64,000 bases of DNA, taken from Mobula hypostoma (Eukaryota). Below the pieces are notes generated by a model that was not told the DNA's origin, did not search any database, and was given only the letters and a program-made list of their open reading frames with translations. Shown here in pieces: positions 1,038-53,667 of this stretch; positions within the stretch are counted from its first letter, which is position 1; each line of letters starts with the position of its first letter. The position numbers and the translations under genes were made by a program. The stretch is from contig NC_086097.1 of the NCBI RefSeq assembly GCF_963921235.1, positions 4,836,001 through 4,900,000 on the forward strand. The letters are read 5' to 3'.

Positions 1038-1281
1038 ACACAAACGCAAGAGATTCTGCAGATGTTGGAAATCCAGAGCAACACACACTAAATATTGGAT
1101 GAACTCACAGGTCAGCCAGCATCTATAGAAATGAATAAACAGGATGTTCAGGCCAAGACCCTTCTTCGGGATCTGATGAAGCCTGATGAAGGGTTTTGGC
1201 CCGAAATGTCAACCATTTATCCATCTCCATAGATGCAGCCCGAGCTGCTGAGTTCTTCCAGTATTTTGTGTGTGTTGCTTC
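1038..1281. mobile_element. Miniature Penelope-derived hairpin element with a hammerhead-like core
   Basis: Inverted arms resembling the Penelope 3' end; CTGATGA-AGGGTTTTGGCCC-GAAA at 1183-1206; TSD AGAGCTGGCATC (1026-1037) / AGAGATGGCATC (1282-1293). Confidence 0.8.
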
Positions 1282-11960: not shown

Positions 11961-12553
11961 ATCTTTGTAAATCAGATGCTTGAATAAGTAGGTACACAGT
12001 AGCTTTGCCCTTGACTTACCTTAATTTACCTGACACCAAAACCAGTTTGTACTGTCCCAACATATCAATGCAGCCGCAAAGAAGGCAAGACAGTAGCTAT
12101 ATTTCATTAGGAGTTAGAGGGGATTTAGTTTGTCAACTTCTGTATGTACTGTGGAAAGCACGCTGACAAGCTGCATCACTGTCTGGTATGGGGCGGGGGG
12201 CTACTGCACAGGACTGAGAGAAGCTAGAGAAAGTTGTAAAATTAGTCAGCTCCATCTTGGGTACTGGCCTCTGTCATATCAGAAACATCTTCAAGGAGTG
12301 GTGTCTCAGAAAGGTGGTGTCCATTATTGAGGACCCCTATTACCCAGGGCATGCCCTTTCCTCCTTGTTACCATCAGGAAGGAGATTCAGCAGCCTCAGC
12401 AATTCAGGAACAGCTTCTTCTCCACCATCTGATTCCTAGATGGACATTGAACCCATGAATACTACCTCACTTTTTGTTTAATATATATTATTTCTGTTTT
12501 TGCACTATTCTAATCTATTCAATATACATACACACATATATATACTTACTGTA

Positions 12554-12757
12554 AACAACAGGAATTCTGCAGATGCTGGAATTTCATGCAATACACATCA
12601 AAGTTGCTGGTGAACGCAGCAGGCCAGGCAGCATCTCTAGGAAGAGGTGCAGTTGACGTTTCGGGCCGAGACCCTTCGTCAGGACTAACTGAAACGTCGA
12701 CTGTACCTCTTCCTAGAGCTGCTGCCTGGCCTGCTGCGTTCACCAGCAACTTTTTTC
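12554..12757. mobile_element. Miniature Penelope hairpin element (young family)
   Basis: Inverted arms 12601-12662 and 12691-12752, nearly identical to the termini of 45173-49070; perfect 15-bp TSD TATATACTTACTGTA (12539-12553, 12758-12772). Confidence 0.92.
12651..12690 (-). ncRNA. Minimal type I hammerhead ribozyme
   Basis: Minus strand reads TAGTC-CTGACGA-AGGGTCTCGGCCC-GAAA-CGTC-AACT. Confidence 0.7.
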
Positions 12758-12919
12758 TATATACTTACTGTAGCTGATTTACTTGGTTATTTATTTATTT
12801 TTTCTTTCTATATTATTATGTATTGTATTGAACTGCTGCTGTTAAATGAACAAATTTCACAACTCATAGCGGTGATAATAAACCTGATTGTGATCCTGTT
12901 GTTGCTGTTGCAACAATGA

Positions 12920-15687: not shown

Positions 15688-17510
15688 ATGGATCCAGCAG
15701 ACCCCGGTCGTCTGAGAGCTGCCCTGGAACAACAGGGAGTGATGCTGGGGAGACCCCAGAACCAACTGGACTCTGTGTTCAGGGCAGTGGAGTCACTTTC
15801 TGTGACTGCATCTTCTGCCCCACTCTCTGTTCTCGCACACTCCTCCCATCCAAGAGCCCCATCTTCCCCTCTAGAAAAGTACTCAGGTGAGCCCAGTACC
15901 TACCGCTCTTTCCTTTCCCAGTGCATCCTCATTTTTGAATTGCAACCAACAACATTTCCAACTGATTGAGCCAAGGTGGCCTACGTCATCAGTCAACTGT
16001 CTGGTCGGGTCAGAGAATTGGGAACAGCTGTTTAGGAGGCAGGCTCACCTTTTTGCAGTAGTTTTCAGTTATTTTCTGAGGAGATGAGAAAAGTGTTTGA
16101 TTGCTCCAAACATGGGGGAGAGGCTGCCTGTGGAATGCTCACGTGCACCAGGAGCGCAGATCTGTGTCGGATTACACCATAGAGTTCCGAACCCTGGCCA
16201 CCTCCAGCGGCTGGAACTTGGAGGCACAGTACGACACCTTCCTGAATGGCCTCTCTGAAGACATCAAAGATGAGCTGGTCACCCAGAGCCTTCCTGCCAC
16301 CTTTGAAGCCCTGGTGGATTTGGCCATCCGTATTGATGTTCGCCTTCAGCAGCGTCGCAGAGGGAAGGGTTCCAGAGGGTCCCTAGGGGCACCTGGTGAG
16401 TTCCAAGTTCCTCGTCAGTCTACATTGCCCTGCCATTTGCCCCCCGTCTACAACTCCCACTCCAGAACCCGAAGCTATGAAGGTTGACTGTACCCACCTC
16501 CTGCTGATTGAAAGACAAAGGAGAATCAGCACCCGTTCCTGTCTGTACTGCAGCCAACCAGACCGCTTCATCTCCACCTGCCCAGTAAAAGCCAGCGCTC
16601 ACCAGTAGGATGAGGGGTATTGGTCAGGTGACCCCTGTCTGGCCCTCCTCGACGCCACTCACTCTCATACCTGCTTCTCTGGAGTGGGGCATCCAACGGT
16701 GAGCAGTCTCTGTCTTGGTCAATTCTGGTGTGGAGGGGTGGTTATCAGTTCCGGCTTGGCTGCCCAATGGGGACTACCCACTTCTGCTCTCCAGTCACCA
16801 TTAATGGCCAATGCCTTGAGTCGTCAGAGACTGGCTAACATCACCCATGTCACGGCCCTGGTAAGTCTAAGTTTATCCGGAAACAATCATGAATAGTTAA
16901 CCCTTTATGTTATTGACTCTCAAGCTCCCATTGTCCTGGGCCATCCCTGGTTAGTCAGACACAACCCCCACATTGACTGGCTCAGTTGCAAACTGTAGGC
17001 TGGAGCCCATTCTGTCACTCCCACTGCCTCCACCATGCTCAGATCCCCTTGTCTCCAAGCCCAGATCCCCCTTAGGAATTTCTGGACCTTAGTGCCATCC
17101 CTCCTGAATATATGGGTCTCAACGCTGTGCTCAGCAAGTCCCAGGCCACTTCCCCACCGCCTCATCATTCATGTGATTGCACCATTGACCTCTTGCCTGG
17201 CACATCTCCCCCAAGGGGCCGCCTGTATTCCCTGTCCTTACCTGAAACAGAAGCCATGAATGAGTACATCCAAGAGTCACTGGCCACAAGCATCATCCGG
17301 CCATCTTCCTCTGCTGCTGGTGCCAGTTTTTTCTTTGTTAAAAAGGACAGCTCCTTACATCCAAGCATTGAATACCGGGGACTGAATGAAGTCAGTGTTA
17401 AGAACCATTACCCTCTTCCGCTCATGACCTTTACATTTCAAGTACTGCAAGGAGCCTCAATTTTCACCAAGCTGGTTCTCCGTAATGCCTACGATCTTGT
17501 CCACATTTGC
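15688..17510 (+). pseudogene. Gypsy gag-pro-pol remnant
   Basis: MDPAD start, EKYSGEP, SVSDYTIEFRTLA, FLNGLSEDIKDEL, zinc knuckle CLYCSQPDRFISTCP, RT motifs [17 protein letters not shown] and YPLP; many stops and frameshifts. Confidence 0.9.
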
Positions 17511-18429
17511 GCATCTTGGGACTTGTAACTCAATTAATCTCAGTGTGCTCAATACTGTGTCTGCGATTGGATCCCTGCTCCAGTGCCCTGACTCTACCCC
17601 TCCCATCCATATACCTCTCCAAGTTTCCCTTAAGATGCAAGTCATCTGGGCTCTGCTGGTATTGATCCACACTTTCCTTTCTCAGGTACACTGGATGAAG
17701 TTGGCAACATTTGCTATCGTTCCCCTCTCAATACTGGGCATTGAACAGCTTCAGCAGGAGACACGCCAATACTTGCACGTCTGTTGTTTGTCCGTCTTGC
17801 TGTGAGCAGTTTTTCACTGGCTCTGTTGTGTTTCTTCGTATTTACCGTGAATTCCTACAAGAAAATGAATCTCAGGTTTGTAAATGGTGACATATGTGTA
17901 CTTTGATAATAAATTTACTTTCAGTTTTGCTGGAAGGTCTACAAAATGTTCACACAATTCTTGTAGTTGAGATCCTGTCTGACCTTGAACGTCTCAAGAG
18001 GCCACCACCGAGGATGAGGAAAGAACTGTTTTACTATTAGTGTAGATGTTGACTTGATCAGTACCAGTAATTGCACGATAGAAGTCCTCCAGCTGGATTC
18101 TTATCTTCATGGAACCCAACCTTGTCATCTCCTCTTTCATATTATAGTAGTTCAAAGTACATTTATTATTGATGTATGCATACAGTTCACAACCTTAAGA
18201 TTCATCTTCTTGCAGGTAGTCACAAAACAAAGAAACACAATGGAATCAGCTTAAAGAAAAATCAACATGCAACCAAAACTGTCAAACACCCAATGCGTTT
18301 AAAAAAACAAACCCCGACAAAAAATAACAAATAACACAGAACATGAACTGCAAGACCCCAAAAGTGAATTCATGGTATTATAAACCTTCAGCCCAATCTG
18401 TTTGCAGTCTATATCAGTGATTTAGAGGA

Positions 18430-25350: not shown

Positions 25351-28019
25351 CTCTGAGATAAGATCCACCAATTGTCTCTCAGGTGCCAAAGTGGAGAATA
25401 TAGAGAATATGGCAGAGATAGATTGGACAATCGAAAGCTGTGATTCACGTCATCATTAATCAAAGTGGGAACAATAGGGTTAGAAGCATTGAAGAAAGAG
25501 ATTGGAGATTCAGGTGTGACAGAGGAAAGCAGGTATTTCCAAGTTGATATCATTAGTATGAGCCAGTACACCTTACACTAGACTGGACAGCTGGCACATG
25601 ACTTCATGTGAGATTGAGTGGAGGGGGTCCTAGTTATTCAGGTGTTCAAGTTCAAAATTATCGTTATTTAACTGCACACATGTATACCACCAAATGAAAC
25701 AGCATTCCTCCAGACCAAGGAGCACAACACAGTACATACAAATCACACATAAAGTAACATTACCTCAAATAAATTAACAAATAATAAAGTGCACTTATGA
25801 CACAAGTTAAAAAGTAAACAGTATAACGCGACTGGCACTTCATTTATGATGAGACCTGGATGCTGGCAGGGAGTTCAGTAATCTCTCAGTCTGGGGGATG
25901 AAACTCTTTCCCATTCTAACAGTCCTTGTCCTAATGCTACAGTACTCCCTGCCTGATGGTGGGGGGGCAAAGAGATTGATGGACGGATGGGAGAGACATT
26001 GACAATGCTGAAGACCCTGCGTACACAGTGCTCCAGATAAATATCTCCGATGTGTGGAAGAGAAACCCAGATGATCCTCTCAGCTGTCCTCACAATCCTT
26101 TGTAGGGACCTGAGTTCTGAAGGTTTGCAGTTTCTGTACCAGGCGGTGATGCAGCTGATCAGGAAACTAATATGTTAATATTTGATTCTGGACAGGAAAC
26201 TGTTCCAGTGCTTTCTTGAAACCAGTAATAACATCTACAAGTGCATTTTAACTAAAAGAGGATAGCATGGCAAAAAGGCAGTGGACGAAGTTAAGATTAA
26301 AAAGAGTAACATCTAGAAGATGGTGCTGTGCGGATAGAGGACACGAATGGAGAATCACAATGAGAAAAACAATGACAATAGAAGTTTCAAGGTGGCGTTG
26401 CCCAAATGTGAATGTGCAAATGATCAGAAACAAAGTTGGAGAACTCCGGGCTTTCCCTACATCAGCAAATGAACGGCAAATATTCACCTGCACTGCACCC
26501 AGCAGAAAACATACAGAATTCATTCAAAAAGGTAATGCTGTGTGCCTCAAGGACATATGACGTGCCGGTAAAACATGTTACATCTCTTGCATTTGTAATG
26601 AAGGGACATAATGCATTTGGCATGAAACACGAGGCTGCAGAGTGAACTCAGCCCAGTCCACAACCTGGTCCTCCCCATCACTGAAACCGTCTGTCTGGGG
26701 GAATCCGGGATCGCTACTCGTGCCCTCCTCTTGGTGCACCTTCAGGCAGGAGATACAGAAGCCTGAAGTCATGCACTGCTGAATGGCTACTTTCCTACAA
26801 CTGACCTGCACAATCCACCTCCTCCACTGCAGTCTTCAATTGATTTTGTTTTGGCTGCACAGACTATATTCACTATCATTTATGTACAATTTATATATTC
26901 TGTGTGGTTGTTTAAGCTCCCACCATCAATTAAATGCTCCCATGCTGTGTGTCTCGAATAGCCTCTGACAATCAAATCCAGCTCCTGGCCTTCATATGAG
27001 GCTTTGCTACTAAATCCAAAGGAACCGTTTCTACTGACAGGAGAAGGGGAAGAACCAGGTTATCAATGCCTTAACACCAGTCGCTTCAGACAGATGGGGC
27101 TCATCAGCTGTGGCTGGCGGCTCACCTGGGAGAGGAGATCTCTGACCTCAAACCTCCGCTGCCTTGCAGCTATAACCACTCATAGGGAAGGCCTCAGGAG
27201 TAAACCCTGAGGGAAAAATCTGGAGCTGGAGTCCCTAAGGAGATTCTATGTTCATTTCAACACTGACTGACAACTCCTTCAACATCACTGGTGCCAAACT
27301 GTGTCGGTTTCTGCCATTCCTTTCGATTCATCATCTGTGTGGAGAGAGGGAGCCTACTCCCCATGTTGTACTGCCCTAGCTTGCAGACTGGATTGCCTAT
27401 CACATAGACAGCTAGGAGGCAATATCAGTGATCGGCCCTGACCAATGGAGGGGCTCCTGCGTTCTGAATGCATCAGCCTGAGATATTGCTGTTAGCAGGT
27501 TTTTCATTCCAGCTGTGCCTCACTGTACCTGTGCAAATAGCAATAAACTGAACGAGGTTTGACTTGACTTGACCATGATTTAAATTATATTCTTCGTTAA
27601 GGAGTCATGGGGTCTACCCTGCTGAACAATGTTTGACAGTTATTTCCATCAAAAGAGAGGCCTTTTACAAGAAAGTATCTTTTTTTATCTGAAAAGAATT
27701 TCCAGCCCTGAACGGAATTAGTAACCTCTGGCAGACTCCTTTGATCTCCAGACTCCTCCTAACAGCTATGCAAGTATCACTGAGAAATGTGCCCTTGGAA
27801 AGTAGCTGGGCAAACTTGAGAAGCGTGCTGGGTGTTAGCAACTGACCTATATTATTGCAATGAAGTTGTTTCAACTGTGGAAGACAAGGGTTTATTTATT
27901 TATTTGGCCATACAGCGTGCAACAATTTCTTCTGGCTTGATGAGCAGTGGTACAGTGGCACCCAGCAGCCCACTGTCTTTATCCTAACCTAATCACAGGC
28001 CAAATTACAATGCCTAATT

Positions 28020-31000
28020 AAGACCATAAGAACAGAATTAGGCTACTTGGCCCATCAAGTCTGCTCTGCCAGTTCATCACGCCTGATCCATTTTTCCTTT
28101 CAACCTCCATGTCTTCCCTTCTCCCCCTGTCCCTTCATGCCCTGCCCTGTCAAGAACCTATCACCCTCTGGCTTGAAAATACGTAAAGACTTGGCCTCCA
28201 CAGCTGTATGTGGTAAAGAATTCCACAGATTCACCACTCAGTGACTAAAGAAATTCCTCTTCATCTTCATTATAAAAGGACACCTCTCTATTCTGTGTCC
28301 TCTGGTCTTAGACTCTCCCATCATAGGAACCATTTTCTCACATCAAGTCTTTCAACATTTGATAGGTTTCAATGAGATCACCCCTCAATCTTCTAAATTC
28401 TAGTGAATACAGGCCCGGAGCCATCAAATGCTCTTCATATAACAAGCCGTTCAATCCTGGAATCATTTTTGTGAACCTCCTTTGAACCCTCTCCAGTTTC
28501 AGCACAGTCTTTCTAAGATAAGTGACCTGAACCTGTTCACAATACTCCAAGTGAGACCTCACCAGTGCTTTATATAGTTTCAACACAACATCCTTGCTTT
28601 TATGTTCTAGTCCTCTTGAAATGAATGCTAACATTGCATTTGTCTTCCTCATCACAGTCTCAACCTGCAAATTAATCTTTAGGGAATCCTGCACAAGGAA
28701 TCCCAGGTCCCATTGCACCTTAGTTTTTAGCATTTTCTCTCCATTTAGAAATTAGTCAACTCTTTCATTTCTTCTACCAGAGTGCATGACCATAAACTTC
28801 CCATCTGCTATTTTTTTCCCATTCTCTTAATCTATCTAAGTCCTTCTGTATCTTCTCTACTTCCTCAAAACTACCTGTCCGTTAATCTATCTTCACATCA
28901 TCTGCAAACTTTTTAACAAAGCCATCAATTCCATCATTCAAATCATTGACATATAATGTAAAAAGAATTGATTCCAACACACTCCCCTGAGGAAAACCAC
29001 TTGTCACCGGCAGCCAGCTAGAAAATGCTCTCTTATTCCCACTCTATGCCTCCTGCCAATCAGCAAACCACTGATTTATCCATGCTAGAATCTTCCAGAA
29101 GTACCATGGGCTTGTAGTTTGATAAGCCGCTTCATGAATGGCACCTTGTCAAAGGCCTTCTGAAAATCCAAATACACAACATCAACTGATTCTCCTTTGT
29201 CTATCCTGCTTGTTATTTCTTTAAAGAATTCTAACAGCTTTGTCAGGCAAGATTTTCCCTTGAGGAAACTATTACGACCTGTTTTATGATGTGCCTGCAA
29301 GTACCCAGAGACCTCATCCTTAATAATTGACTCCAACATCTTCTCAACCACTGAGGTCAGACTAATTTCCTTTCTTCTACCTTCCTCCCTTCTTGAAGAG
29401 TGGAGTGACATTTGCAATTTTCCAGTCTTCAGAAACTATTCCAAAATCTAGTGGTGCTCAAAAGATCATTATTAATGCCTCCACATTCTCTTCAGCCACT
29501 TTCTTTCTGAACTTTGGGGTGTATACAATCTGGTCCAGGTGACTTATCAAACTTCAGACCTTTCAGTTTCCCAAGAACCTTCTCCCTATTAATGATGACT
29601 TAACACACTTCATGCCCCCTGACACCTGGAACTTCCACCATACTGCTAGTGTCTTCCATGGTGAGGAGTGATACAAAATACTTATTCACTTTTCTGCCAT
29701 TTCGTTGTCCCCCATTACTACCTCTCCAGCGTCATTTTCCAATGGTCTGATGTCCACTCTGGCTTCTCTTTTACACTTCATGTATCTGAAGAAACTTTTG
29801 ATATCCTCTTTAATAATATTCACTAGCTTACATTCCTATTTCATCTTTGGTTCATTATGACTTTTTTAGCTGCCTTCAGTTGGTTTTTAAAAGCTCCCCT
29901 ATCTTCTAACTTCTCACTAATTTTTGCTCTATGAAATGCCTTCTCTTTGGCTTCTATGTTGGCTTTGACTTCTCTGGTTTGCCATGGTTGTGTCGTCTTT
30001 CCTTTAGAATGCTTCTTCCTCTTTGGGATAGATAGATAGATACTTTATTGATTCCAAAGGAAATTACAGTGTCACAGTAGCATGTGCACAGATAAACAAA
30101 TATTAGAAGAGAAGTAAGAAAGAATAAAAAATAAGTTACCTCAAATAGTCTAACAGGAGGGGGATCATCACTTCCTTGGCTATAGTTTGACTCATTATAG
30201 TGCCCAATGGCTGAGGGTAAGAATGACCTCGTATTGCACTCTTTGGAGCAGCACAGTTGTCTTAGTCTATTACTAAATGTGCTCCTCTCTTCAGCCAAGG
30301 TGGCATACGGAGTGCGAGAAATATTGTCCATAATTGTCAGGGTTTTCTGTAGGGTCCTTTGTTCTACCCCATTCTCCAGTGTGTCCAGTTTGACTCCAAT
30401 AACAGAGCCAGCCTTTCTAATCAGTTTATTGAACCTGTTGTCACCCGTGTTGATGCCATTGCCCCAGCACACCACTGCATAGAAGATTGTACTGATGGCA
30501 ACAGATTAGTAGAACATATGATGGAGAGGCCCGCATACTTCAAAGGACCTCAGTGTCCTCGGTAAGTGGAGCCGACTCTGGTTCATTTTGTACAGTCTCT
30601 GTGTTGGTGCTTCACTCAAGTCTGACATCCACGTGCACCCCTAGGTACTTGCAGATCCTCACCGCATCCACGTCCTCACCGTCAATAGTAACAGGGAGCA
30701 ATGCAGCCCGAGTCTTCCTAAAGTCCATCACCATTTCCTTTGTCTTACTGATGTTGAGCTGCAGATAATTCTGCTTGCACCATTTGACAAAGTCCTCCAC
30801 CTGGGCCCTGTATACACTCAACTCCTGTCCTCCCTTTATACACCCAACTATTGCTGAATCATCAGGGAATTTCTGCAGATGACATGACTCAGTGTTGTAT
30901 CTAAAGTCCAAGGCATTCATGGTAAACAGTAAAGGACCCAATACAGTCCTTTGTGGGGCCCCAGTGCTGCTTATAGCTATGTCTGACACACAGCTCTGAA

Positions 31001-31388
31001 GCTACACAAGCTGTGGTCTGCCAGTCAGGTAGTCCATTATCCAGGATACAATGGAAGTGCCAACCAGCATTGAATGGCGCAGATCCCTCAGCAATGAGGG
31101 CTGTGTGGTATTGAAGGCACTTGAGAAATCAAAAAACATGATCCTCACAGTGCTGCTCTGCTTATCCAAATGGGAGTAGGCTCTGTATATATCCTGTGCC
31201 ATCCAAATTGCTTCTAGAAATTCCAGCCATTGCTGCTCTGCTGTCATCCCTGCCAGTGTTCTTTTCCAATCAATTCTGGCCAACTCCTCTCTCTTCCTCT
31301 GTAATTCCCTTTACTCCACTGTAATACTGATACATCTGACTTTAGCTTCTCCTTCTCAAATTACAGGGTGAATTCAATCATATTATGG
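28020..31388 (-). mobile_element. Decayed CR1 LINE interrupted by Rex1 (30030-31185) and cut off at a Penelope copy
   Basis: ORF 28338-28733 (RSHLEYC, RGDLIET), ORF 29085-29417 (DFQKAFDKVP) and IDWKRTL at 31283; further endonuclease-like remnant at about 32130-32320. Confidence 0.88.
30030..31185 (-). mobile_element. Rex1/Babar LINE, 5'-truncated
   Basis: [35 protein letters not shown]; (TATC)n tail. Confidence 0.88.
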
Positions 31389-31975
31389 CAACACACATCA
31401 AAGTTGCTGGTGAACGCAGCAGGCCAGGCAGCATCTCTAGGAAGACGTTTCAGGCTGAGACCCTTCGTCAGGACTAATTGAAGGAAGAGTGAGTAAGGGA
31501 TTTGAAAGTTGGAGGGGGAGGGGGAGATCCAAAATGATAGGAGAAGACAGGAGGGGGAGGGATAGAGCCAAGAGCTGGACAGGTGATAGGCAAAAAGGGA
31601 TACGAGAGGATCACGGGACAGGAGGTCCGGGAAGAAAGACAAGGGGGGGGGACCCAGAGGATGGGCAAGGGGTATATTCAGAGGGACAGAGGGAGAAAAA
31701 GGAGAGTGAGAGAAAGAATGTGTGTATAAAAATGAGTAACAGATGGGGTACGAGGGGGAGGTGGGGCCTTAGCGGAAGTTAGAGAAGTCAATGTTCATGC
31801 CATCAGGTTGGAGGCTACCCAGACGGAATATAAGGTGTTGTTCCTCCAACCTAAGTGTGGCTTCATCTTTACAGTAGAGGAGGCCGTGGATAGACATGTC
31901 AGAATGGGAATGGGATGTAGAATTAAAATGTGTGTCTATCCACGGCCTCCTCTACTGTACCACATCCCATTTATC
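31389..31975 (-). mobile_element. Young Penelope 3' fragment with a short internal inversion
   Basis: Nearly identical to the reverse complement of 48520-49070; flips to plus at about 31933 (TGTCTATCCACGGCCTCCTCTACTG). Confidence 0.88.
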
Positions 31976-32880: not shown

Positions 32881-33045
32881 CAACACGCACAAAATGCTGG
32901 AGGAATTCAGCGGGTCAGGCAGCATCTATGGAGAGGAATAAAGAGTCCATGTAAAGAGTCCGGGCTGTGACAGTTCATCATGAATTCCTGCGGTGTTTCC
33001 TGTGTCTTTTCTGGATTACCAGCATCTGCAGAATCTATTGTGCTT
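32881..33045. mobile_element. Miniature Penelope-derived hairpin element
   Basis: CAACACGCACAAAATGCTGGAGGAATTCAGC...CCAGCATCTGCAGAATC; TSD GTGGATTAAGAG (32869-32880) / GTGGGTTAAGAG (33046-33057). Confidence 0.75.
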
Positions 33046-34125: not shown

Positions 34126-36171
34126 CTTTGAGTATACTCATATATGCACTTCAGTAATACATTTTGAACTTTGAACTCTGAACTTTGATCATTTGGCAGG
34201 AGGTTACAAGGAGGAAGAGATGATGAAGAAGTGTAACATGGTTTGGGATTTGACGTAGAACTGTCTGGCAGTTGAGGTAAAGAAAGTTTCTGATTTGCAG
34301 CTGAAACCTTGGTGAAAGAGCTGGGTAATGACCTTCAGATCATTCCACATGCAACCAGAGTCATGATCACTCTCACTCCCTTCATCCCTTTAGCTTACCT
34401 TCATTGGAAATGGCTGCCAAAATTTCCAAGAAAGAACGCTTTATATAAACCCTGGTTCAGCTTAATCCTAGGTTTTCTGTCCCTCAATGAATAATCTGCC
34501 TTTTCAGAGCATGTTTTTAGCATAAGACTGTAAGATATAGGTGCAGAATTAAGCTATTCAATCCATCGGGCCTGCTCCACCATTCCATCATGGCTGATTT
34601 ATTATCCTCTCAACCCAACTCTCCTGCCTTGCCTTCTCACCTGAAAAATTAATTACCTCCCAGCCTCTGTTTTAAATATACCCATTGACGACCTCCACAG
34701 CTGTCTGTGGCAATTAATTCTACAAATTCACTACTCCTTGGCTAAAGAAATCCCTCCCCATCTCTGTTCTAAATGGATGTCTGTCTGTTCTGAGGTGGTG
34801 CCTTCTAGTTCTAGACCCACCCACCATGGAAAACATCTTCTCCAAATCCACGCTGTCTAGGCCTTCCAACATTTGGTTGGTTTTAATAAGATTGTGCCCC
34901 CCCACCCCCGATTTTTCTGAACTACAAGGTGTACAAGCCTAGTTCTATCAAATATTCCTCATACAATAACCCTTTCATTCCTGGAATCATTTTACAGGAT
35001 GTGTTGAAAAGCTTCAGAGGAACAGGTTCTTTGATCCACAATGTTGCGTCACAGCAATTAAACGAGTAATCAAATATCTAGCTAATCCCTTCTGCCTACA
35101 GAATGTCTGTGTCCCTCTATTTTCAGCACATTCCTAGTGAGGACCTGTTGTACTTGCCTTCATCTCCACCCCCTGGGATTGCATTTCAAGCACCCATTGA
35201 TCTGTGTTTTTAAAAAAGTACCTGCTCTGCACATTTTCCTTGAACTTTCACACTCTAACCTTAAATGCATGGCCTCTAGAGGGCGATAGTGCTGGATGTC
35301 GCCGGGACTTGAGGACCAGCGTTACAGGGAAAGGTTGAGCAGATTTCGGTGGAGCAAAGGAGAACAAGGGGAGATCTTATAGGGGTTTTGATGGGATAAG
35401 TAAATTCAGGCGTTTTCTCCTGACATTGGGTGACACCAAAATTATATGTCATAGGTTTAAGATGAAAGTAAAATATTCAAGGGAAACCTGATGGCGAACT
35501 TCTTCACTCAGAGGATGGTGAGAGTGTAGAATGAGCTGTCAGTGCAACTGGTGGATGTGGGTTCAATTGGCACATTTAAGAGAAGTTTGGATAGGTATGT
35601 GGATGGGAGGCGTGGAGGGCTGAGGTCTGGGTCTGGAGTTGCCAACCTGGGGTCAATGGCATAAAAAAGATGAGAAAGAAACCCCTGGTCTTGGTGTAGG
35701 TAGATGGAATTAGGCAAAAAACAGGTCGGTATGGATTGGGTGTACCAAAAGTCCTGTTTTTTGTGCTGTAGTACTCTGACTCTATGACTTCAACATTTCA
35801 AAGATTCATTTTATTATTAGAGTGTGTATGCAGAATACAACTCTGAAATTTTCTTCTCCAGATAGCCACAGAATACAGAAAAAACCTATCGGGGCAGTTG
35901 CAAGAAAGATGTCAATCCCATTCCCCCCCAAAAAAGAAAAAGAAACAAAAACTTGCAGACCCCAAACACCTCCAACACCTCCCTCACCCAAAAACTAACA
36001 GATCACCCTAACCCGCAGCCTGGCAATTGGCAACAAGAATGGGTGAGAATATTAAAAAAATTGATTTGAAAGAGACCAATATGAACTACAGTCCAATTCA
36101 TAATTCTCAGAATTTTGATAACATCTGTGAGATCATTGGGACTCAGGGCAACTCCTTGATCCAATAGCCTC

Positions 36172-37145
36172 TGTGATGGTAACTACTCGAACCAGCAGCC
36201 CCCGTGACAGTAACGACTCGAACCAGCAGCCCTTCTGACGGTAACGACTCGAACCAGCAGCCCTTATGACGGTAATGACACGAACCAGCAGCCCTCCTGA
36301 CAGTAATGACTCGAACCAGCAGCCCTTCTGATGGTAACGACTCAAACCAGCAGCCCCCCTGACGTTAACGACTCGAACCAGCAGCCCCTATGACGGTAAT
36401 GACACGAACCAGCAGCCCCCCTGACAGTAACGACTCAAACCAGCAGCCCCCCTGACAGTAATGACTCGAACCAGCAGCCCTTATGACGGTAATGACACGA
36501 ACCAGCAGCCCCCCTGAAAGTAATGACTCAAACCAGCAGCCCCCCTGACAGTAACGACTCAAACCAGCAGCCTCTCTGATGGTAGCAACTCGAACCAGCA
36601 GCCCCCCTGATGGTAATGACTCAAACCAGCAGCCTTCCTGACGGTAATGACTTGAACCAGCAGCTCCCCTGATGGTAACGACTCGAACCAGCAGCTCCTC
36701 TGATGATAATGACTTGAACCAGTAGCCCTTTTGATGGTAAAGACACGAACCAGCAGCCTCTCTGATGATAACAACTTGAACCAGCAGCCCTTATGACGGT
36801 AATGACACGAACCAGCAACCCCCCGATGGTAACGACTCGAACCAGCAGCCCCACTGATGGTAACGACTCAAACCAGCAGCCCCTCTGCTGCCCCTCTGCT
36901 GATAATGACTTGAACCAGTAGCCCTTATGACGGTAATGACACGAACCAGCAGCCCCCCTGATGGAAAAGGCTCTAATGACTCGAACCAGCAGCCCCGCTG
37001 ACGGTAACGACTCGAACCAGCAGCCCCTCTGATGATAACAACTTGAACCAGCAGCCCTTATGACGGTAATGACACGAACCAGCAGCCCCCTGACAGTAAT
37101 GACTGAAACCAGCAGCCCCGCTGACGGTGACGACTCAAAACAGTG
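36172..37145. repeat. Minisatellite, about 30-31 bp unit (GACTCGAACCAGCAGCCCCCTGACGGTAAT), roughly 30 copies
   Basis: Direct tandem copies with a fixed AACCAGCAGCC core and no unique spacers. Confidence 0.95.
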
Positions 37146-38369
37146 ACCTCTCCAAGGAAAATGACATGAAACAATGGCCTCTCTGAGAACCACTCGCTTT
37201 CCTCTGCGTTTGCCTCATAGTTTCAATCTACTTCGACAGTTTAATTGGCCATAACTTTCGTCAATCATGGCCCCACATCTCATCTCTGAGCTTCTCCCCA
37301 TGATAGCTCGTGCTCACATTTCTCTCCTGGAGTTTTCTTGGGCACGGCGGAGAGTGAGCTCACTCAATTGAACTGCAGACTGTTAAGTCCCAGGCTCCAG
37401 CAGTTTCAAAAACCAAATTAAGGTAAAAAGAATAAGTAGAACATGTCGAAGACCTGAAATGATTGATTATCTGAAAGTTGTTGCCTGGGGAATCATTGTT
37501 TGCTGGCATTATCTTGACTGGAAGGACTTTATGACATTTCAACCCTGGGGAAAAAGGTACCGTCTGTTTACCCTGACTATGCTTTTAATCTTAATATAGA
37601 CATCTTTATTTGGGATGGTGCTTGGTGATTTTTATAATTAAGCATACCTATGCCTTCATAGCTCTCCCATGTGTCCCTGCTTCCTCTTGTGAAGCATTAA
37701 ACGTCTCCCCAATGCCACAGTATGTTATCTGCGTGACAATGCTGTTTTGATTTCTGTCTGTCAATAAAGGGGACTCTGACAGCATTTGAGTTTGTCTGGG
37801 AAACCTCAATTTTTTTTTATGGCATTATTACTTGTGACACGATTCTATAGCCATCAGCCAGCATTTCTCCTCATTTGTGTAAATCTAGTGTTAATATTTC
37901 AGAGAATATTTTAATTCATCAGTGTCACAGATTCAGCACAATTCTCTGATAACTATACCATCTGTTCTTGTTTTAGGAGGCTGGTGGCAAAATTGAAATA
38001 TAATAATTGAGCTAATTATGAGCAATACAGGCAGCTGTTTGGAAGGAAATAACATTTGCATTTTTGCATTTAATCTTTTTCCTGAGACCTACATACTGCT
38101 CATTGTTGGAAAGTATAACATCTGTAGCTTTGCACACAGGAGAATATCAAGTTCAGAGAATTTTGCATTTTCAAATCCCTGTGAGCTGGGACAAAAAGCT
38201 CACACAAGGAGTGAGCTCCACAGTATCATGATCAATGCTGGAATGGGTCTGAGTTCTAAGGGGGTTGGGGGGGGGGGGAATATTCGCATTTTTGCACTGG
38301 AGTTTAGAAGAATGGGGGGGATCTCATTGAAACCTAAAAATACTGTAAGGCTGAGATAAAGAGTATGTG

Positions 38370-38915
38370 CAGAGGAAAAAGGAGAGAGAAAAAAATTAAT
38401 GATAATAATAAATAAATAAATAACGGATGGGCTCCTCTACTGTCAAGATGAAGCTACACTCAGATTGGAGGAACAACACCTTATGGGTGACCTCCAACCT
38501 GACGGCATGAACATTGACTTAAACTTCCGTTAACACCCCACCTCCCCTTCGTACCCCATCCATTTTTTCTCTCTCTCTCCTTTTTCTCCCTCTGTCCCTC
38601 TGACTATACCCCTTGCCCATCCTCTGGGTTTTTTCCCTCCTCCCCCTTTTCCTTCTCCCTGGGCCTCCTGTCCCATGATCCTCTCATATCCCTTTTGCCA
38701 ATCACCTGTCCAGCTCTTGGCTCCATCCCTCCCCCTCCTGTCTTCTCCCATCATTTTGGATCTCCCCCTCCCCCTCCCACTTTCAAATCTCTTACTCACT
38801 CTTCCTTCAGTTAGTCCTGACGAAGAGTCTTGGCCCGAAACGTCGACTGTACCTCTTCCTAGAGATACTGCACGGCCTGCTGCGTTCACCAGTAATTTTT
38901 ATGTGTGTTGCTTGA
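38370..38915 (+). mobile_element. Young Penelope 3' fragment with a short inverted leader
   Basis: GIY-YIG C-terminal remnant (GGAGGAACAACACCTT) and a 3' UTR matching 48570-49070. Confidence 0.85.
38811..38849 (+). ncRNA. Minimal type I hammerhead ribozyme
   Basis: TAGTC-CTGACGA(38817-38823)-AGAGTCTTGGCCC-GAAA-CGTC|GACTG; predicted cleavage after 38844. Confidence 0.7.
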
Positions 38916-40532: not shown

Positions 40533-40893
40533 TGTGGGATCAGTTAAGTGATCTCTTATTACAAAACAACGGAAATGTTACATTTTCGCAGAGGTGGGAA
40601 GTGTTTTTTTACCCATCTGTTGAATTAAATTCAAAGAGGTACTTATCCTGTGTCAGGTTTTGTAGAGCCATCTGTCTGCAAGCAGCACTCATGTTGGTTG
40701 GTTTCAGTAAAGTTAGTAAACACATAAGAACTTTGTAGTCTATTTCAATTCACATCATTTATTTATTTTCTGCAAAGACCGAGCTTTACCTGATAATGTC
40801 GAAGTCACGTAAAGCCTTATTCCGACGATCAAAGTTCGGATTCTGATCCGCAGGCCTACTGAAGTTTTTCCAAGACCCGGCAAAGCTGATCTT

Positions 40894-44070: not shown

Positions 44071-45268
44071 TTAAGTGTAGAGTTGTATCTTTGGAGAAGC
44101 GTGCTTTACCAAGACTTGATTAAAATATACAACCAAATGCTCAGTACAAAGCAGCTTATTAACAATTATGTTGTTCTCCTTTACGCTTGCGTACTGGAAA
44201 TGACATTAAACATTTTGGAATAAGATGAAGATACACGGCAGACTTTTACTCTTCAAAAGTGTGGGGGCATTATTTTCACTGGACGTCCTTGAATTATTAT
44301 GGCAGATGACTGATGCAGTTTTTCTTTGCACAAGCATAGCTCTGTGGACGAGAACGATAATGATGTGGGCAGCTTACAAAAATGACACTGGCTGAGAGGA
44401 CAAATGGGTGGAAAATGGATGTAATGACTCTAAAGGGCCTCTGCGAGCTACAGCTGTTCATGTTACATTATGATAATAGCAGTATATTACATAACCATCT
44501 TTGGCTCTGTTTCTCAAATATATTCAGAGTTTATAGACTGATATGAATTGAGAACTGCTGTTTCTGCAGTTTGTTTGAAAGTCAGAAGCTCCTATAATTT
44601 AGGTCTTAAACCTGGAGGCTGCCAGCTACATCAATAAAGTTTGCAGAAAACAGCACAATAAAATAAATTCTTCAATTTCAATACATTAAATTGATATTGA
44701 TTTTAGGATCCAGCTACTTATTTACATACCCACCAAATGATCTATAGTTCCTCGAAAAATTCTCTACCCAAGAGGGCTGAGGAGATTCAGTCACTAAGTA
44801 TATTCAAGAAGGAGACAGTTTTTAAAATGTGTTTTTATTTTTTATTTAGAGAAGTGGTGTGGAACGGATTCTTCTGGCTCACCAACCTCCTATCTGGGTG
44901 AGGTGAGGGGTCAGAGCCTTTGCTGGTCAGAACTGACCATGGATTTTGTGTCTAAGCTGTCTAGATATGCAAGCCTGGGCAGTGTGATACGGAGAGAAAG
45001 TTGTTGCTCAGGTAGCAAGCTCCCCGTTCTCCACGCATCTGATGAACCCAAAGGAATGGCAGAGACTGGCACAGTTTGGTACCAGCGGCGTTGCAGGAGT
45101 TGCCAGTCAGTTGAACCCTCTATTTAACCCTGGCCTAATTACAGGACAACTTATAATGGCTGTATAAAGGTAAACAACAGGAATTCTGCAGATGCTGGAA
45201 ACTCAAGCAACATACATCAAAGTTGCTGGTGAACGCAGCAGGCCAGGCAGCATCTCTAGGAAGAGGTG

Positions 45269-45306
45269 CAGTCGACGTTTCAGGCCGAGACCCTTCGTCA
45301 GGACTA
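45269..45306 (-). ncRNA. Minimal type I hammerhead ribozyme, left arm
   Basis: Minus strand reads TAGTC-CTGACGA-AGGGTCTCGGCCT-GAAA-CGTC|GACTG. Confidence 0.78.
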
Positions 45307-45600
45307 ACTGAAGGAAGAGTGAGTAAGAGATTTGAAAGTTGGAGGGGGAGGGGGAGATCCAAAATGATAGGAGAAGACAGGAGAGGAAGGGATGGAGCCA
45401 AGAGCTGGACAGGTGATTGGCAAAAGGGATATGAGAGGATCATGGGACGGGAGGTCCAGGAAGAAAGACAAGGTGGGGGGGGGACCCAGAGGATGGGCAA
45501 GAGGTATATTCTGAGGGACAGAGGGAGAAAAAGGAGAGTGAGAGAAAGAATCTGTGTATAAAAATAAGTAACAGATGGGGTACGAGGGGAAGGGGGGGCA

Positions 45601-47097
45601 TTAGCGGAAGTTAGAGAAGTCGATGTTCATGTCATCAGGTTGGAGGCTACCCAGACAGAATATAAGGTGTTGTTCCTCCAACCTGAGCGTGGCTTCATCT
45701 TTACAGTAGAGGAGGCCGTGGATAGACATGTCAGAATGGGAATGGGATGTGGAATTAAAATGTGTGGCCACTGGGAGATCCTGCTTTCTCTGGCGGACAG
45801 AGCGTAGGTGTTCAGCAAAATGATCTCCCAGTCTGCGTCGGGTCTCGCCAATATATAGAAGGCCACATCGGGAGCAGCAGACGCAGTATATCACCCCAGC
45901 CGACTCACAGGTGAAGTGTCGCCTCACCTGGAAGGACTGTCTGGGGCCCTGAATGGTGGTAAGGGAGGAAGTGTAAGGGCACGTGTAGCACTTGTTCCGC
46001 TTACACGGATAAGTGCCAGGAGGGAGATCAGTGGGGAGGGATGGGGGGGACGAATGGATAAGGGAGTCGCGTAGGGAGCGATTCCTGTGGAAAGCAGAGG
46101 GGGGGGGAGGGAAAGATGTGCTTAGTGCTGAGATCCCGTTGGAGGTGGCGGAAGTTACGGAGAATAATATGTTGGACCTGGAGGCTGGTGGGGCGTTAGG
46201 TGAGGACCAGGGGAACCCTATTCCTAGTGGGGTGGCGGGAGGATGGAGTGAGAGCAGGTGTGCGTGAAATGGGGGAGATGCATTGGAGAGCAGAGTTGAT
46301 AGTGGAGGAAGGGAAGCCCCTTTGTTTAAAAAAGGAGGACATCTCCCTCGTCCTAGAATGAAAAGCCTCATCCTGAGAGCAGATGCGGCGGAGACGGAGG
46401 AATTGCGAGAAGGGAATGGCGTTTTTGCAAGAGACAGAGTGAGAAGAGGAATAGTCCAGATAGCTGTGAGAGTCAGTAGGCTTATAGTAGACATCAGTGG
46501 ATAAGCTGTCTCCAGAGACAGAGACAGAAAGATCTAGAAAGGGGAGGGAGGTGTCGGAAATGGACCAGGTAAACTTGAGGGCAGGGTGAAAGTTGGAGGC
46601 AAAGTTAATAAAGTCAACGAGTTCTGCATGCGTGCAGGAAGCAGCGCCAATGCAGTCGTCGATGTAGCGAAGGAAAAGTGGGGGACAGATACCAGAATAG
46701 GCACGGAACATAGATTGTTCCACAAACCCAACAAAAAGGCAGGCATAGCTAGGACCCATACGGGTGCCCATAGCTACACCTTTAGTTTGGAGGAAGTGGG
46801 AGGAGCCAAAGGAGAAATTATTAAGTGTAAGGACTAATTCCACTAGACGGAGCAGAGTGGTGGTAGAGGGGAACTGATTAGGTCTGGAATCCAAAAAGAA
46901 GCGGAGAGCTTTGAGACCTTCCTGATGGGGGATGGAAGTATATAGGGATGGGCATTCATGGTGAAAATAAAGCGGTGGGGGCCAGGGAACTTAAAATCAT
47001 CGAAAAGTTTAAGAGCGTGAGAAGTGTCACGAACATAGGTCGGAAGGGATTGAACAAGGGGGGATAAAACCATGTCGAGGTATGCAGAAACGAGTTC
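45601..47097 (-). pseudogene. Penelope RT + GIY-YIG endonuclease, left arm
   Basis: QTKGVAMG, RYIDD, FLDL, YYKPT, linker CKRNKCYTC, GVIY...LYIGET, EH, HF, GMN-like end; frameshifts near 46200 and 46950. Confidence 0.92.
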
Positions 47098-48679
47098 CCA
47101 CACCTCAGACTTCCCGTTTCTACCTCCTACCCAAGATCCACAAACCTGCCTGTCCTGGCCGACCTATTATCTCAGCTTGCTCCTGCCCCACCGAACTCAT
47201 TTCTGCATACCGCAACACGGTTTTATACCTCTTGTTCAATCCCTTCCTACCTATGTTCATGACACTTCTCACGCTCTTAAACTTTTCGATGATTTTAAGT
47301 TCCCTGGCCCCCACCGCTTTATTTTCACCATGTATGTCCAGTCCTTATATACTTCCATCCCCCATCAGGAAGGTCTCAAAGTTCTGCGCTTCTTTTTGTA
47401 ATCCAGACCTAATCAGTTCCCCTCTACCACCACTCTGCTCCGTCTAGCGGAATTAGTCCTTACTCTTAATAATTTCTCCTTTGGCTCCTCCCACTTCCTC
47501 CAAACTAAAGGTGTAGCTATGGGCACCCGTAAGGGTCCTAGCTATGCCTGCCTTTTTGTTGGGTTTATGGAACAATCTATGTTCCGTGCCTATTCTGGTA
47601 TCTGTCCCCCACTTTTCCTTCGCTACATTGACGACTGCATTGGCGCTGCTTCCTGCACGCATGCAGAGCTCGTTGACTTTATTAACTTTGCCTCCAACTT
47701 TCACCCTGCCCTCAAGTTTACCTGGTCCATTTCCGACACCTCCCTCCCCTTTCTAGATCTTTCTGTCTCTGGAGACAGCTTATCCACTGATGTCTACTAT
47801 AAGCCTACTGACTCTCACAGCTACCTGGACTATTCCTCTTCTCACCCTGTCACTTGCAAAAACGCCATCCCCTTCTCGCAATTCCTCCATCTCCGCCGCA
47901 TCTGCTCTCAGGATGAGGCTTTTCATTCTAGGACGAGGGAGATGTCCTCCTTTTTTAAACAAAGGGGCTTCCCTTCCTCCACTATCAACTCTGCTCTCCA
48001 ATGCATCTCCCCCTATTCACGCACACCTGCTCTCACTCCATCCTCCCGCCACCCCACTAGGAATAGGGTTCCCCAGGTCCTCACCTACCACCCCACCAGC
48101 CTCCGGGTCCAACATATTATTCTCCGTAACTTCCGCCACCTCCAATGGGATCCCAGCACTAAGCACATCTTTCCCTCCCCCCCCGCTTTCCGCAGGGATT
48201 GCTCCCTACGTGACTCCCTTGTCCATTCGTCCCCCCCATCCCTCCCCACTGATCTCCCTCCTGGCATTTATCCGTGTAAGCGGAACAAGTGCTACACATG
48301 CCCTTACACTTCCTCCCTTACCACCATTCAGGGCCCCAGACAGTCCTTCCAGGTGAGGCGACACTTCACCTGTGAGTCGGCTGGGGTGATATACTGCGTC
48401 CGGTGCTCCTGATGTGGCCTTCTATATATTGGCGAGACCCGACGCAGACTGGGAGACCGCTTTTCTGAACACCTACGCTCTGTCCGCCAGAGAAAGCAGG
48501 ATCTCCCAGTGGCCACACATTTTAATTCCACATCCCATTCCCATTCTGACATGTCTATCCACGGCCTCCTCTACTGTAAAGATGAAGCCACGCTCCGGTT
48601 GGAGGAACAACACCTTATATTCCGTCTGGGTAGCCTCCAACCTGATGGCATGAACATCGACTTCTCTAACTTCCGCTAG
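47098..48679 (+). pseudogene. Penelope RT + GIY-YIG endonuclease, right arm
   Basis: FYLLPKIHK, GRPIIS, SLYTSIP, GVAMG, RYIDD, CKRNKCYTC, GVIY...YIGET; frameshift near 47228 and stops at 47399 and 48410. Confidence 0.92.
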
Positions 48680-48971
48680 GCCCCACCTCCCCCTCGTACC
48701 CCAGCTGTTACTCATTTTTATGCACACATTCTTTCTCTCACTCTCCTTTTTCTCCCTCTGTCCCTCTGAATATACCTCTTGCCCATCCTCTGGGTCACCC
48801 CCCCCCCCGTCTTTCTTCCCGGACCTCCTGTCCCATGATCCTCTCGTATCCCCTTTTGCCTATCACCTGTCCAGCTCTCGGCTCTATCCCTCCCCCTCCT
48901 GTCTTCTCCTATCATTTTGGATCTCCCCCTCCCCCTCCAACTTTCAAATCCCTTACTCACTCTTCCTTCAG

Positions 48972-49010
48972 TTAGCCCTGACGAAGGGTCTCTTCCTGAA
49001 ACGTCGACTG
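48972..49010 (+). ncRNA. Minimal type I hammerhead ribozyme, right arm (one stem I mismatch)
   Basis: TAGCC-CTGACGA(48978-48984)-AGGGTCTCTTCCT-GAAA-CGTC|GACTG. Confidence 0.7.
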
Positions 49011-49469
49011 CACCTCTTCCTAGAGATGCTGTCTGGCCTGCTGCGTTCACCAGCAACTTTGATGTGTGTTGCTGTATAAAGGTACTGTCTTTGGACTGTG
49101 GGAGGAAAACCAAACACCAGGAAGAAACACACGTGGTCAAGAGTACGTACAAACTCATTACAGAGGCTGCTCGACTTGAAGTCTGAACTCCAATGCCCGG
49201 AGCTGTAAAGCGTCATGCTGACTACTATGCTACCACAGCCTATACATTTATACAGAGAATCAAAGAACATACCCAAGTCTCTATGGGACATTAGGAAAGA
49301 GATTGCTGGGGCATTGATAAGGATCTTTTGCACCTTCCCTGGCCACAAGAGTGCTCCCAAAGGATTGGAGGATGGCAAATGTTGTTCTATTGTTAAGAGG
49401 TAGTCAGGGTAATCTTGGGGATTATGAACCAGTGAGTCTTACTTCAGTGGAATCATCTGGCAGGACAGA

Positions 49470-52779: not shown

Positions 52780-53580
52780 CTAAACTTGTCCAATCTCTTG
52801 TTATGACACATGTCCTTTAATCCTCAACTAATAAAGTCAAACATGCTATTTTCCTCCTTGAACACCCTATCAGCCTGTGTAGCCACTTTTAGGGAGCTCT
52901 TAACTTTGACTCAAGACCCCTCTGCGAATCAACACTGTTTAGGGTCTTTTCCTTAACAGTATACTGTCTCTTTACATTTTACTTACCAGATGCAACTCTC
53001 ACAATTGGCTGGGTTAAACTCCATCTGCCATTTCTCCACATTTTACTGCAACTGATCTATATCCCATTGTATTCTTTGCCAGTCAACTACACTATCCACA
53101 ACACCACAAATCTTGGTATAATCTGCAAATTTACTAACCCACCCATCTACATTTTCATCCAGGTCACTTACATACATCACAAACAGCAGAGATCCTAGTG
53201 CTGATCCCTGCGGAACACCACTCATCACAGACCTCCAGCTAGAATAACTCTTCCATGGGCAAGCCAGTTCTGAATCCAATGGCAATTCACTATTAATCCC
53301 ATGCATCTTAAACTTCTGTCAAACAACGTACAATGTTCTTTTTTTTACAACCTCCACAGCTCTACCTTCATTAATCACACTCATCTCCTCATCAGAAAGC
53401 AAATCAATTAAGCTAGGCTTAACTTGTGCTGCACACGTCATGTTGGCTCTTCAGAATTAGACCATGGTTTTTCTAAACACTCATAAATCCTAACCCTAAT
53501 AGTTCCCTGCAGTAATTTCCCTACCAGTTATGTGAGATTCACCGGTTCATAGTTTCCAGGATTATCCCTGGTTCCCTTCA
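52780..53580 (-). mobile_element. CR1 LINE RT fragment
   Basis: ORF 53043-53306 GVPQGSALG, KFADYTK. Confidence 0.8.
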
Positions 53581-53667
53581 AATGACACAAAAATAGGCAG
53601 GAAAGAAAGTTGAGAAGAAGACATCGAGTACCATGAAATTAGTTGTTTAGAGGGATCAGTAAAAACT

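What the first reader, a model, noticed from the sequence alone, without database searches (positions are those of the whole stretch)
12539..12772. 204-bp hairpin made only of Penelope termini, with a perfect 15-bp TSD
Seen: the same left terminus as the 3.9-kb element (AACAACAGGAATTC...), one intact hammerhead core, then a strand flip at a CTGAA microhomology (about 12689-12693) into the inverted arm. It looks like a MITE but derives from a retroelement. Inference: either the shortest product of the two-arm mechanism or an independently amplifying ribozyme-bearing non-autonomous element (retrozyme-like).
Basis: partly seen in the sequence, partly recalled or inferred. Interest (0 to 1): 0.7.

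Follow-up and report, generated by a model that had tools for sequence, protein, structure and literature searches.

The report
Stub-sized two-armed Penelope retroelement insertion
This 204-base hairpin is a stub left where a Penelope-type jumping gene landed with two of its tail ends joined head to head, a layout already described for these elements, and it shows no sign of being a separate self-spreading element.

Summary
In detail: a 204-bp insert (12554-12757) between perfect 15-bp direct repeats, built from two inverted pieces of the 3' end of a Penelope-like element (PLE; Neptune-type by protein motifs). Corrections: 4 extra bases sit at the right junction; the safe microhomology is 3 nt (5 only against one sequence variant); the hammerhead core letters are intact, but its first stem-I pair is broken and its cleavage half is predicted locked (paired at 0.99 or more) in the hairpin stem. 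The layout (head to head, 34-39-bp tail at one end only, variable TSD) is the published PLE insertion signature. The window holds three more such inserts (3.9 kb, 244 bp, 165 bp), each with its own junction and a one-sided tail; the 204-bp junction occurs once. Best reading: made during integration, both cut target ends priming reverse transcription and the two cDNAs joined by microhomology. It is not a DNA MITE and fails the retrozyme tests that could be run. A genome-wide count of the junction was not possible. One side result: the arms of the 3.9-kb copy resemble different family copies, hinting at two RNA templates per insertion.

The parts
12539..12553 (+). Left copy of 15-bp target-site duplication (80% A+T), inside an A+T-rich stretch of an older host repeat
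   Evidence: paralogous host-repeat contigs run across the site without the insert (8 of 15 listed joints)
12554..12693 (-). Long arm: last 140 nt of the PLE (sense on minus strand), 3' end pointing left
   Evidence: 95% to 45173-45312; the ORF of that arm is on the minus strand and ends at 45601
12554..12587 (-). 34-bp 'tail', present at this end only
   Evidence: many other family copies begin at 12588 and 12593 with A+T-rich flanks (223 and 216 contigs in X1, 199 and 247 in X5); 30-40-bp one-sided tail described in PMC8557442
12650..12687 (-). Minimal type I hammerhead motif; core starts at 12682, predicted cut after 12655; first stem-I pair broken at 12654; cleavage half paired in the long stem
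   Evidence: matches the minimal motif described in PMC4209133; not detected by Rfam
12689..12693 (.). Strand-flip junction; microhomology 3 nt (12691-12693) or 5 nt depending on the template variant
   Evidence: variant share; unique in the window
12689..12753 (+). Short inverted arm: element positions 111 to 47 from the 3' end, no tail, only the 3' half of the hammerhead
   Evidence: differs from the long arm at 3 of 63 positions outside the ambiguous junction base
12754..12757 (+). 4 extra bases not matching the element or the left flank; with the first 5 TSD bases they recur at 12805
   Evidence: such a 9-mer recurs in 385 of 20000 flank shuffles, a post hoc and weak sign of local templating
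12758..12772 (+). Right copy of the target-site duplication
45173..49070 (.). Comparison: 3.9-kb head-to-head insert of the same family, 14-bp TSD (45159/49071), RT then C-terminal GIY-YIG, broken by frameshifts, tail at left end only
1038..1281 (.). Comparison: 244-bp two-arm insert of an older subfamily, 12-bp TSD with 1 mismatch (1026/1282), tail left, different junction with a short local duplication
32881..33045 (.). Comparison: 165-bp two-arm insert of the older subfamily in the opposite orientation, 12-bp TSD with 1 mismatch (32869/33046), tail right, different junction

Best explanation
A dead, extremely 5'-truncated insertion of a Penelope-like element, whose mirror-image shape was made on the spot during integration. 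The GIY-YIG nuclease cut both target strands 15 nt apart. One target 3' end primed reverse transcription at the far end of the tail and copied 140 nt; the other primed at an inner start site (position 47; the common ones are 35 and 40), after gaining 4 extra bases, and copied about 63 nt. The two short cDNAs annealed through 3-5 complementary bases and repair filled the gaps, leaving a head-to-head pair inside a 15-bp duplication. Shown: the parts, their orientation, the TSD, the one-sided tail, the family origin, junction variety in the window. Inferred: the cut geometry, priming from both ends, the join, and that the stub does nothing now.
For: Both arms are PLE 3' ends pointing outward. 4 of 4 two-arm inserts with a TSD in the window have a tail at one end only and 4 different junctions; TSDs are 15, 14, 12, 12 bp (a TSD score as good as the two decayed ones arose in 13 of 1464 random pairs). 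Family copies in two organisms pile up at tail-less starts 12588/12593. In vitro a PLE protein cleaves and extends both target strands, starts at two adjacent internal RNA sites that define the tail, is predicted to be a dimer, and does not need hammerhead cleavage (PMC11167929); the cut site here lies at +25 from the start-codon position against 26 there, and both arms run through the cut site, i.e. uncut RNA was copied. The 3.9-kb arms differ as much from each other (28 of 562) as from a third copy (25 and 18 of 546), and 3 non-CpG sites group the right arm with the copy at 31388 against 1 that groups the two arms, which a self-copying cDNA would not give. The 204-bp arms differ at 12649/12704, a site split 43:57 in family depth.
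Against: No genome-wide count of the junction. The short arm ends at position 47, not at a common start site, and has 4 extra bases rather than microhomology. The copy at 31388 has a perfect 27-bp fold-back at its 5' end without a second terminus or TSD, so fold-back does occur in this family. The two-template signal comes from the 3.9-kb copy, is clustered in 130 nt (could be gene conversion), and in the 204-bp copy rests on one site. One X1 contig of single-copy depth lies across the junction with 8 other letters and 2 gaps, better than any ordinary window copy can (10-14 mismatches plus 6-12 gap letters): possibly another hairpin with a similar junction. Later collapse of a longer palindrome would leave the same ends.
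Confidence: 0.55

Rival explanations
1. Made at insertion, but by fold-back: one cDNA primed at the tail stopped after 140 nt, folded onto itself at the 3-nt microhomology, copied itself back to position 47 and was joined to the second target end.
For: Self-priming was proposed for PLE head-to-head repeats (PMC3846280). A 27-bp perfect fold-back exists at 31933-31959. A short 29-nt loop is the right size for a hairpin primer; small-hairpin priming is described at L1 breaks (10.1101/2024.12.14.628481). The end at 47 plus 4 extra bases looks like end-joining.
Against: Does not by itself explain why second arms stop at the same places where single copies start (35-40). Arms should be identical at birth, yet they differ at a family-polymorphic site here and at several in the 3.9-kb copy.
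Confidence: 0.2
2. A longer two-arm insert like the 3.9-kb one lost its interior later by microhomology-mediated deletion, keeping both ends and the TSD.
For: Long inverted repeats are deletion-prone (general knowledge); both older inserts in the window are short; a 3-5-nt microhomology fits deletion as well.
Against: The 3.9-kb, 95%-identical palindrome of the same subfamily has survived; strong 5' truncation is normal for PLEs; short single copies are common in the window.
Confidence: 0.13
3. The hairpin is itself a non-autonomous unit, transcribed whole and re-inserted by the PLE enzyme (MITE-like or retrozyme-like family).
For: It keeps the tail region where the enzyme starts; pLTR sequences suffice for mobilisation in trans (PMC3846280). 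One X1 contig fits across the junction imperfectly, and a few shorter joined forms show depth 44-121 against 10-15 for single-copy flanks, two of them in both X1 and X5 (sides under 30 letters, weak).
Against: Junction unique in the window; four inserts, four junctions. One hammerhead, no tandem repeat; cleavage half paired at 0.99 or more, and opening the core costs 13.5 kcal/mol against 4.3-5.9 in single arms; minimal monomers did not cleave in vitro (PMC4209133). A 65-bp stem would also bury the inner start sites.
Confidence: 0.08
4. Assembly or library fold-back artefact.
For: Inverted PLE structures trouble assemblers; no exact junction-spanning contig was among those listed.
Against: Perfect TSD on both sides; arms differ at 3 positions; an exact 93-nt contig covers the left boundary (21 letters inside the insert, below the tool's 31-letter bridging rule, and X1 may be the source sample).
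Confidence: 0.03
5. A DNA-transposon MITE.
For: Short, non-coding, hairpin-forming, TSD-flanked.
Against: The inverted repeat starts 46 bp inside the left end, so it is not terminal; the sequence is the 3' end of an RT plus GIY-YIG element; TSD length varies 12-15 bp in the family.
Confidence: 0.01

Closest known systems
Endonuclease-bearing Penelope-like element insertions with an inverted 5'-truncated copy and one-sided 30-40-bp tail (Arkhipova et al. 2013, PMC3846280; Craig et al. 2021, PMC8557442; passages read)
   Same: Head-to-head inverted ends, tail at one end only, variable TSD, overlap at the inverted junction, minimal hammerhead in the terminal repeat
   Different: Both arms are cut down to the terminal repeat, so no ORF and no direct pLTR remain; the TSD (15 bp) is longer than the 8-10 bp quoted for the rotifer copies
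Dual minimal hammerheads 100-700 bp apart on opposite strands in Schistosoma PLE remnants (Cervera and de la Pena 2014, PMC4209133; main text read)
   Same: Short inverted PLE remnants carrying minimal type I hammerheads; the 244-bp insert at 1038-1281 fits this description directly
   Different: The 204-bp insert keeps one full core only; the second arm starts inside the ribozyme
PAc Poseidon element of Anolis, in vitro mechanism (Frangieh et al. 2024, PMC11167929; main text read)
   Same: Two start sites that define the tail, A+T-rich target, hammerhead cut about 25 nt after the start-codon position, uncut RNA as template
   Different: The parent here has a CX4CxxC linker motif, typical of Neptune and absent from Penelope/Poseidon; the paper does not show how inverted arms are joined
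Non-LTR retrozymes (Cervera and de la Pena 2020, PMC7229834, passages; Li et al. 2026 preprint 10.64898/2026.07.22.740005, part 1 of 5 and passages)
   Same: Small, non-coding, PLE-related, carries a type I hammerhead
   Different: Retrozymes are head-to-tail tandem repeats with a hammerhead per unit and yield circular RNA; this is a single inverted pair with one damaged, sequestered minimal motif
L1 twin priming (recalled; passages in 10.1101/2024.12.14.628481)
   Same: Both target ends prime cDNA and the products join by microhomology inside a TSD
   Different: In L1 the two pieces come from adjacent, non-overlapping parts of one RNA; here both arms copy the same stretch, which needs two templates, a tandem transcript or strand displacement

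Membership tests
Penelope-like element insertion (EN+) | Sequence derives from an element with RT followed by GIY-YIG nuclease | tested here: met
   95% to the end of the 3.9-kb copy; Pfam RVT_1 E 0.007 and GIY-YIG E 0.007, both under curated cut-offs (nothing at E 0.001); atlas first hits 0.96 for RT-type and GIY-YIG clusters
Penelope-like element insertion (EN+) | [quoted passage not shown] | tested here: met
   residues 213-229 of the frame at 45601-46533; definition in PMC8557442
Penelope-like element insertion (EN+) | Inverted 5'-truncated copy, head to head, with a 30-40-bp tail at one end | tested here: met
   4 of 4 two-arm inserts in the window
Penelope-like element insertion (EN+) | TSD of variable length | tested here: met
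   15, 14, 12, 12 bp
Penelope-like element insertion (EN+) | Minimal hammerhead in the terminal repeat | tested here: met
   motif and position; cleavage not tested
Neptune clade of PLEs | CX2-5CxxC motif in the linker before a C-terminal nuclease | tested here: met
   residue 177 of the same frame; definition
Neptune clade of PLEs | RT groups with Neptune (not Nematis) in a tree | not tested
   no reference PLE sequences were fetched
Non-LTR retrozyme | Head-to-tail tandem units with at least two consecutive hammerheads on one strand | tested here: not met
   one core on minus, none on plus; inverted layout; criterion
Non-LTR retrozyme | Hammerhead able to fold and cleave | tested here: not met
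   by prediction only: broken first stem-I pair, cleavage half paired at 0.99 or more
Non-LTR retrozyme | Expressed as small linear and circular RNA | not testable with these tools
   no raw RNA reads offered
Amplifying non-autonomous family | Same internal junction at many loci | tested here: inconclusive
DNA-transposon MITE | Terminal inverted repeats at both very ends | tested here: not met
   inverted part starts 46 bp inside the left end
DNA-transposon MITE | Fixed TSD length and ends shared with a transposase element | tested here: not met
   TSD 12-15 bp; ends shared with an RT element; Repbase and Dfam were not available

The most novel reading that the evidence does not exclude
Penelope-like elements routinely integrate with two RNA templates at once: a dimeric enzyme cuts both strands, each target end copies the 3' end of a different transcript (or a different unit of a tandem transcript), one from the tail and one from the inner start site, and the cDNAs meet head to head. 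The mismatch between arms at subfamily-diagnostic sites would be a genomic footprint of this, and a genome with a vast number of such inserts would let the open question of how PLE inverted repeats form be settled by counting.
Probability: 0.4. Interest if true: 0.55.

Novelty: new member of a known kind. Interest (0 to 1): 0.27.

Why it matters
As an object it is ordinary: a dead stub of a known insertion form. It matters in two small ways. Such stubs mimic MITEs and can be misfiled as DNA transposons in repeat annotation (inference). And how PLEs make their inverted repeats is still called undefined in the literature read (PMC8557442, PMC11167929); clean two-arm inserts with TSDs, common in this genome (4 in 64 kb), allow a simple test between self-priming and two-template priming by asking whether the two arms are each other's nearest relatives.

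Tried and rejected
Whole-genome junction count: no genome held. Rfam: 0 matches in the window at gathering threshold. Junction 20-mer in metagenome contigs: 0; 24-nt arm word in metagenome, viral and prokaryote genome contigs: 0, 0, 0; these collections hold no vertebrate genomes, so the blanks say nothing. Sequencing runs: no RNA holder listed. Pfam at E 0.001: 0 of 4 frames. Solved-structure search: only chance beta-2-microglobulin hits, E 0.28 or worse. TSD search at 6 other family copies found none convincing; the first search at the 1038 insert used a misplaced window and was redone. Earlier findings by sequence and by the long word list: none. Rejected: DNA MITE; hammerhead-cut RNA as template (both arms run through the cut site); my first label Penelope/Poseidon for the parent (linker motif points to Neptune).

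Full report
Observation. The stretch is as described. A 15-bp word at 12539-12553 recurs exactly at 12758-12772, framing 204 bp. Shuffles of the two 40-nt flanks never gave a 15-bp match (0 of 20000), and in 3183 window pairs at this spacing matches of 12 or more occurred only here and in one tandem array. The first 140 bp match the left end of a 3.9-kb element at 45173 at 95%; positions 12689-12753 are the reverse complement of positions 47-111 of that same end at 97%. The strand folds into a long stem (z -15.7). The insert sits in an A+T-rich part of an older host repeat whose other copies run across the site without it (8 of 15 listed joints).

Parent element. The 3.9-kb copy (45173-49070, 14-bp TSD) consists of two arms, 95% identical over 1894 columns, with about 95 bp of asymmetry in the middle. 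Its broken frames point outward, so each outer end is an element 3' end. They give weak Pfam hits to RVT_1 and GIY-YIG (both E 0.007, below curated cut-offs; none at E 0.001) and atlas first hits of 0.96 to RT-type and GIY-YIG clusters. The nuclease has two cysteines between its GIY and YIG motifs, and a CX4CxxC motif precedes it; by the definitions in PMC8557442 (passages) this is a canonical C-terminal-nuclease PLE with the linker motif of Neptune, not Penelope/Poseidon. No tree was built.

The layout is the known PLE insertion form. PMC8557442 (passages) describes an inverted 5'-truncated copy next to the main copy and a 30-40-bp tail often at one end only. PMC3846280 (passages) shows inverted pLTRs inside 8-10-bp TSDs, calls head-to-head the most frequent arrangement, and proposes self-priming. 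PMC4209133 (parts 1-2 of 4) reports minimal hammerheads in PLE ends, pairs of them 100-700 bp apart on opposite strands, and no cleavage by a single motif in vitro. PMC11167929 (parts 1-2 of 4) shows that a purified PLE protein cleaves and extends both target strands, starts at two adjacent internal RNA sites whose spacing is the tail, prefers A+T-rich DNA, is predicted to be a dimer and does not need the hammerhead cut. Here the predicted cut lies at +25 from the start-codon position (26 in that paper), and the ends fall at +126, +92, +87 and +80. Contigs of organisms A and B show many family copies starting at 12588 and 12593 with A+T-rich flanks (223 and 216 contigs in X1, 199 and 247 in X5; 24 of 1990 rows shown), so the tail is 34-39 bp.

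One-off or amplifying. The window holds three more two-arm inserts with TSDs: the 3.9-kb copy, a 244-bp insert at 1038-1281 and a 165-bp insert at 32881-33045, the last two from an older subfamily with 12-bp TSDs at one mismatch, a score reached by 13 of 1464 random pairs. All 4 have a tail at one end only and all 4 junctions differ; 6 further family copies showed no convincing TSD. The 204-bp junction occurs once in the window with up to 3 mismatches. The genome-wide count could not be made, and the contig tables cannot count an exact junction. They list 7 different shorter joints inside the insert among 15 of 467 shown, with short sides, so only a weak hint of variety. Against my reading, two of these appear in both X1 and X5 at depth 44-83 (single copy is 10-15), and one X1 contig of depth 13.9 crosses the junction with 8 other letters and 2 gaps, a better fit than ordinary window copies achieve; it may be another hairpin with a nearby junction. 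The retrozyme reading fails the tests that could be run: retrozymes are tandem repeats with a hammerhead per unit (part 1 of 5, passages), whereas this has one core on one strand; in the hairpin transcript the cleavage half is paired at 0.99 or more and opening the core costs 13.5 kcal/mol against 4.3-5.9 in single arms. It is not a DNA MITE: the inverted part starts 46 bp inside the left end, TSD length varies, and the ends belong to an RT element.

Mechanism. The simplest model joins the anatomy to the in vitro result: a staggered cut 15 nt apart, one target end priming at the tail, the other at an inner site, two short cDNAs annealing by 3-5 bases, then fill-in. These steps are inferred. 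The four extra bases plus five TSD bases recur at 12805, which shuffles give in 385 of 20000 cases: a weak, post hoc sign of templating from the flank. The main rival is fold-back of a single cDNA; a perfect 27-bp fold-back at the 5' end of the copy at 31388 shows that this happens in the family, and small-hairpin priming is described at L1 breaks (passages). A test between them is whether the two arms share one template. In the 3.9-kb copy, over 463 ungapped columns of a four-copy alignment, 5 sites group the right arm with the copy at 31388 (3 outside CpG), 3 group the two arms (1 outside CpG) and 0 group the left arm with that copy; the arms differ at 28 of 562 positions, against 25 and 18 of 546 to the third copy. 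That favours different templates, but the 5 sites lie within 130 nt, so later gene conversion or a mosaic source is not excluded, and only four copies were compared. In the 204-bp insert the arms differ at 3 of 63 positions, one of them a site split 43:57 in family depth: same direction, one site. Later collapse of a longer palindrome also fits the ends and needs allele or orthologue data.

Novelty. Six literature searches (listings only, except the eight papers opened) turned up the descriptions above and no paper on an amplifying PLE-derived hairpin family or on a one-versus-two-template test. The library is open-access only; the 2005 and 2006 PLE reviews, Repbase and Dfam were not seen, and no supplements were read, which may hold such short inverted copies. 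Earlier notes of this scan (AI notes, not support) include a near-identical verdict for five 200-215-bp palindromes in another genome. Verdict: real, a new example of a known PLE insertion form, most likely made at this site and inert; interest 0.27, with the two-template hint as the part worth a genome-wide count.

Noticed in passing
45173-49070 (arms compared over element positions 35-594): The two arms of the 3.9-kb PLE insert are not each other's nearest relatives: the right arm shares 5 substitutions and a 1-nt length variant with the copy at 31388, the left arm with the older copy at 38429-38915.
   Followed up: partly
31933-31959: The single PLE copy at 31388-31934 ends in a perfect 27-bp fold-back of element positions 530-556, followed by a further short inverted bit; no TSD found.
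   Followed up: partly
1038-1281: Older two-arm PLE insert with two hammerhead cores on opposite strands, a short duplication at the junction and a decayed 12-bp TSD.
   Followed up: yes
32881-33045: Older 165-bp two-arm PLE insert in the opposite orientation; its tail-less end shares 4 bases with the TSD.
   Followed up: yes
about 38370-38430: A stretch resembling an inverted internal piece of the PLE 3' region sits at the 5' end of the copy at 38429-38915 (seen by eye, not aligned).
   Followed up: no
12648 to 12693/12694 (joints in runs X1 and X5): Joined forms here would correspond to a strand flip at the 6-bp palindrome that holds the hammerhead cut site; seen in two organisms but with short sides, so a recurring junction or a library fold-back.
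   Followed up: no
40813-43983: A 1056-codon stop-free frame that looks like an endonuclease plus reverse transcriptase ORF of a CR1-type LINE (label from recall, not tested); decayed relatives at 28019-29989 and 61191-63164.
   Followed up: no
36147-37186: Imperfect tandem repeat array of about 1 kb.
   Followed up: no
57190-58575: Broken frames on the minus strand resembling a hAT-type (SPIN/Buster-like) transposase (label from recall).
   Followed up: no
16101-17805: Frames resembling retrotransposon gag and protease/RT pieces, with a 19-bp exact repeat at 15643 and 17565 (label from recall).
   Followed up: no
52826-55672: Old inverted pair of LINE fragments, 69% over 807 columns.
   Followed up: no
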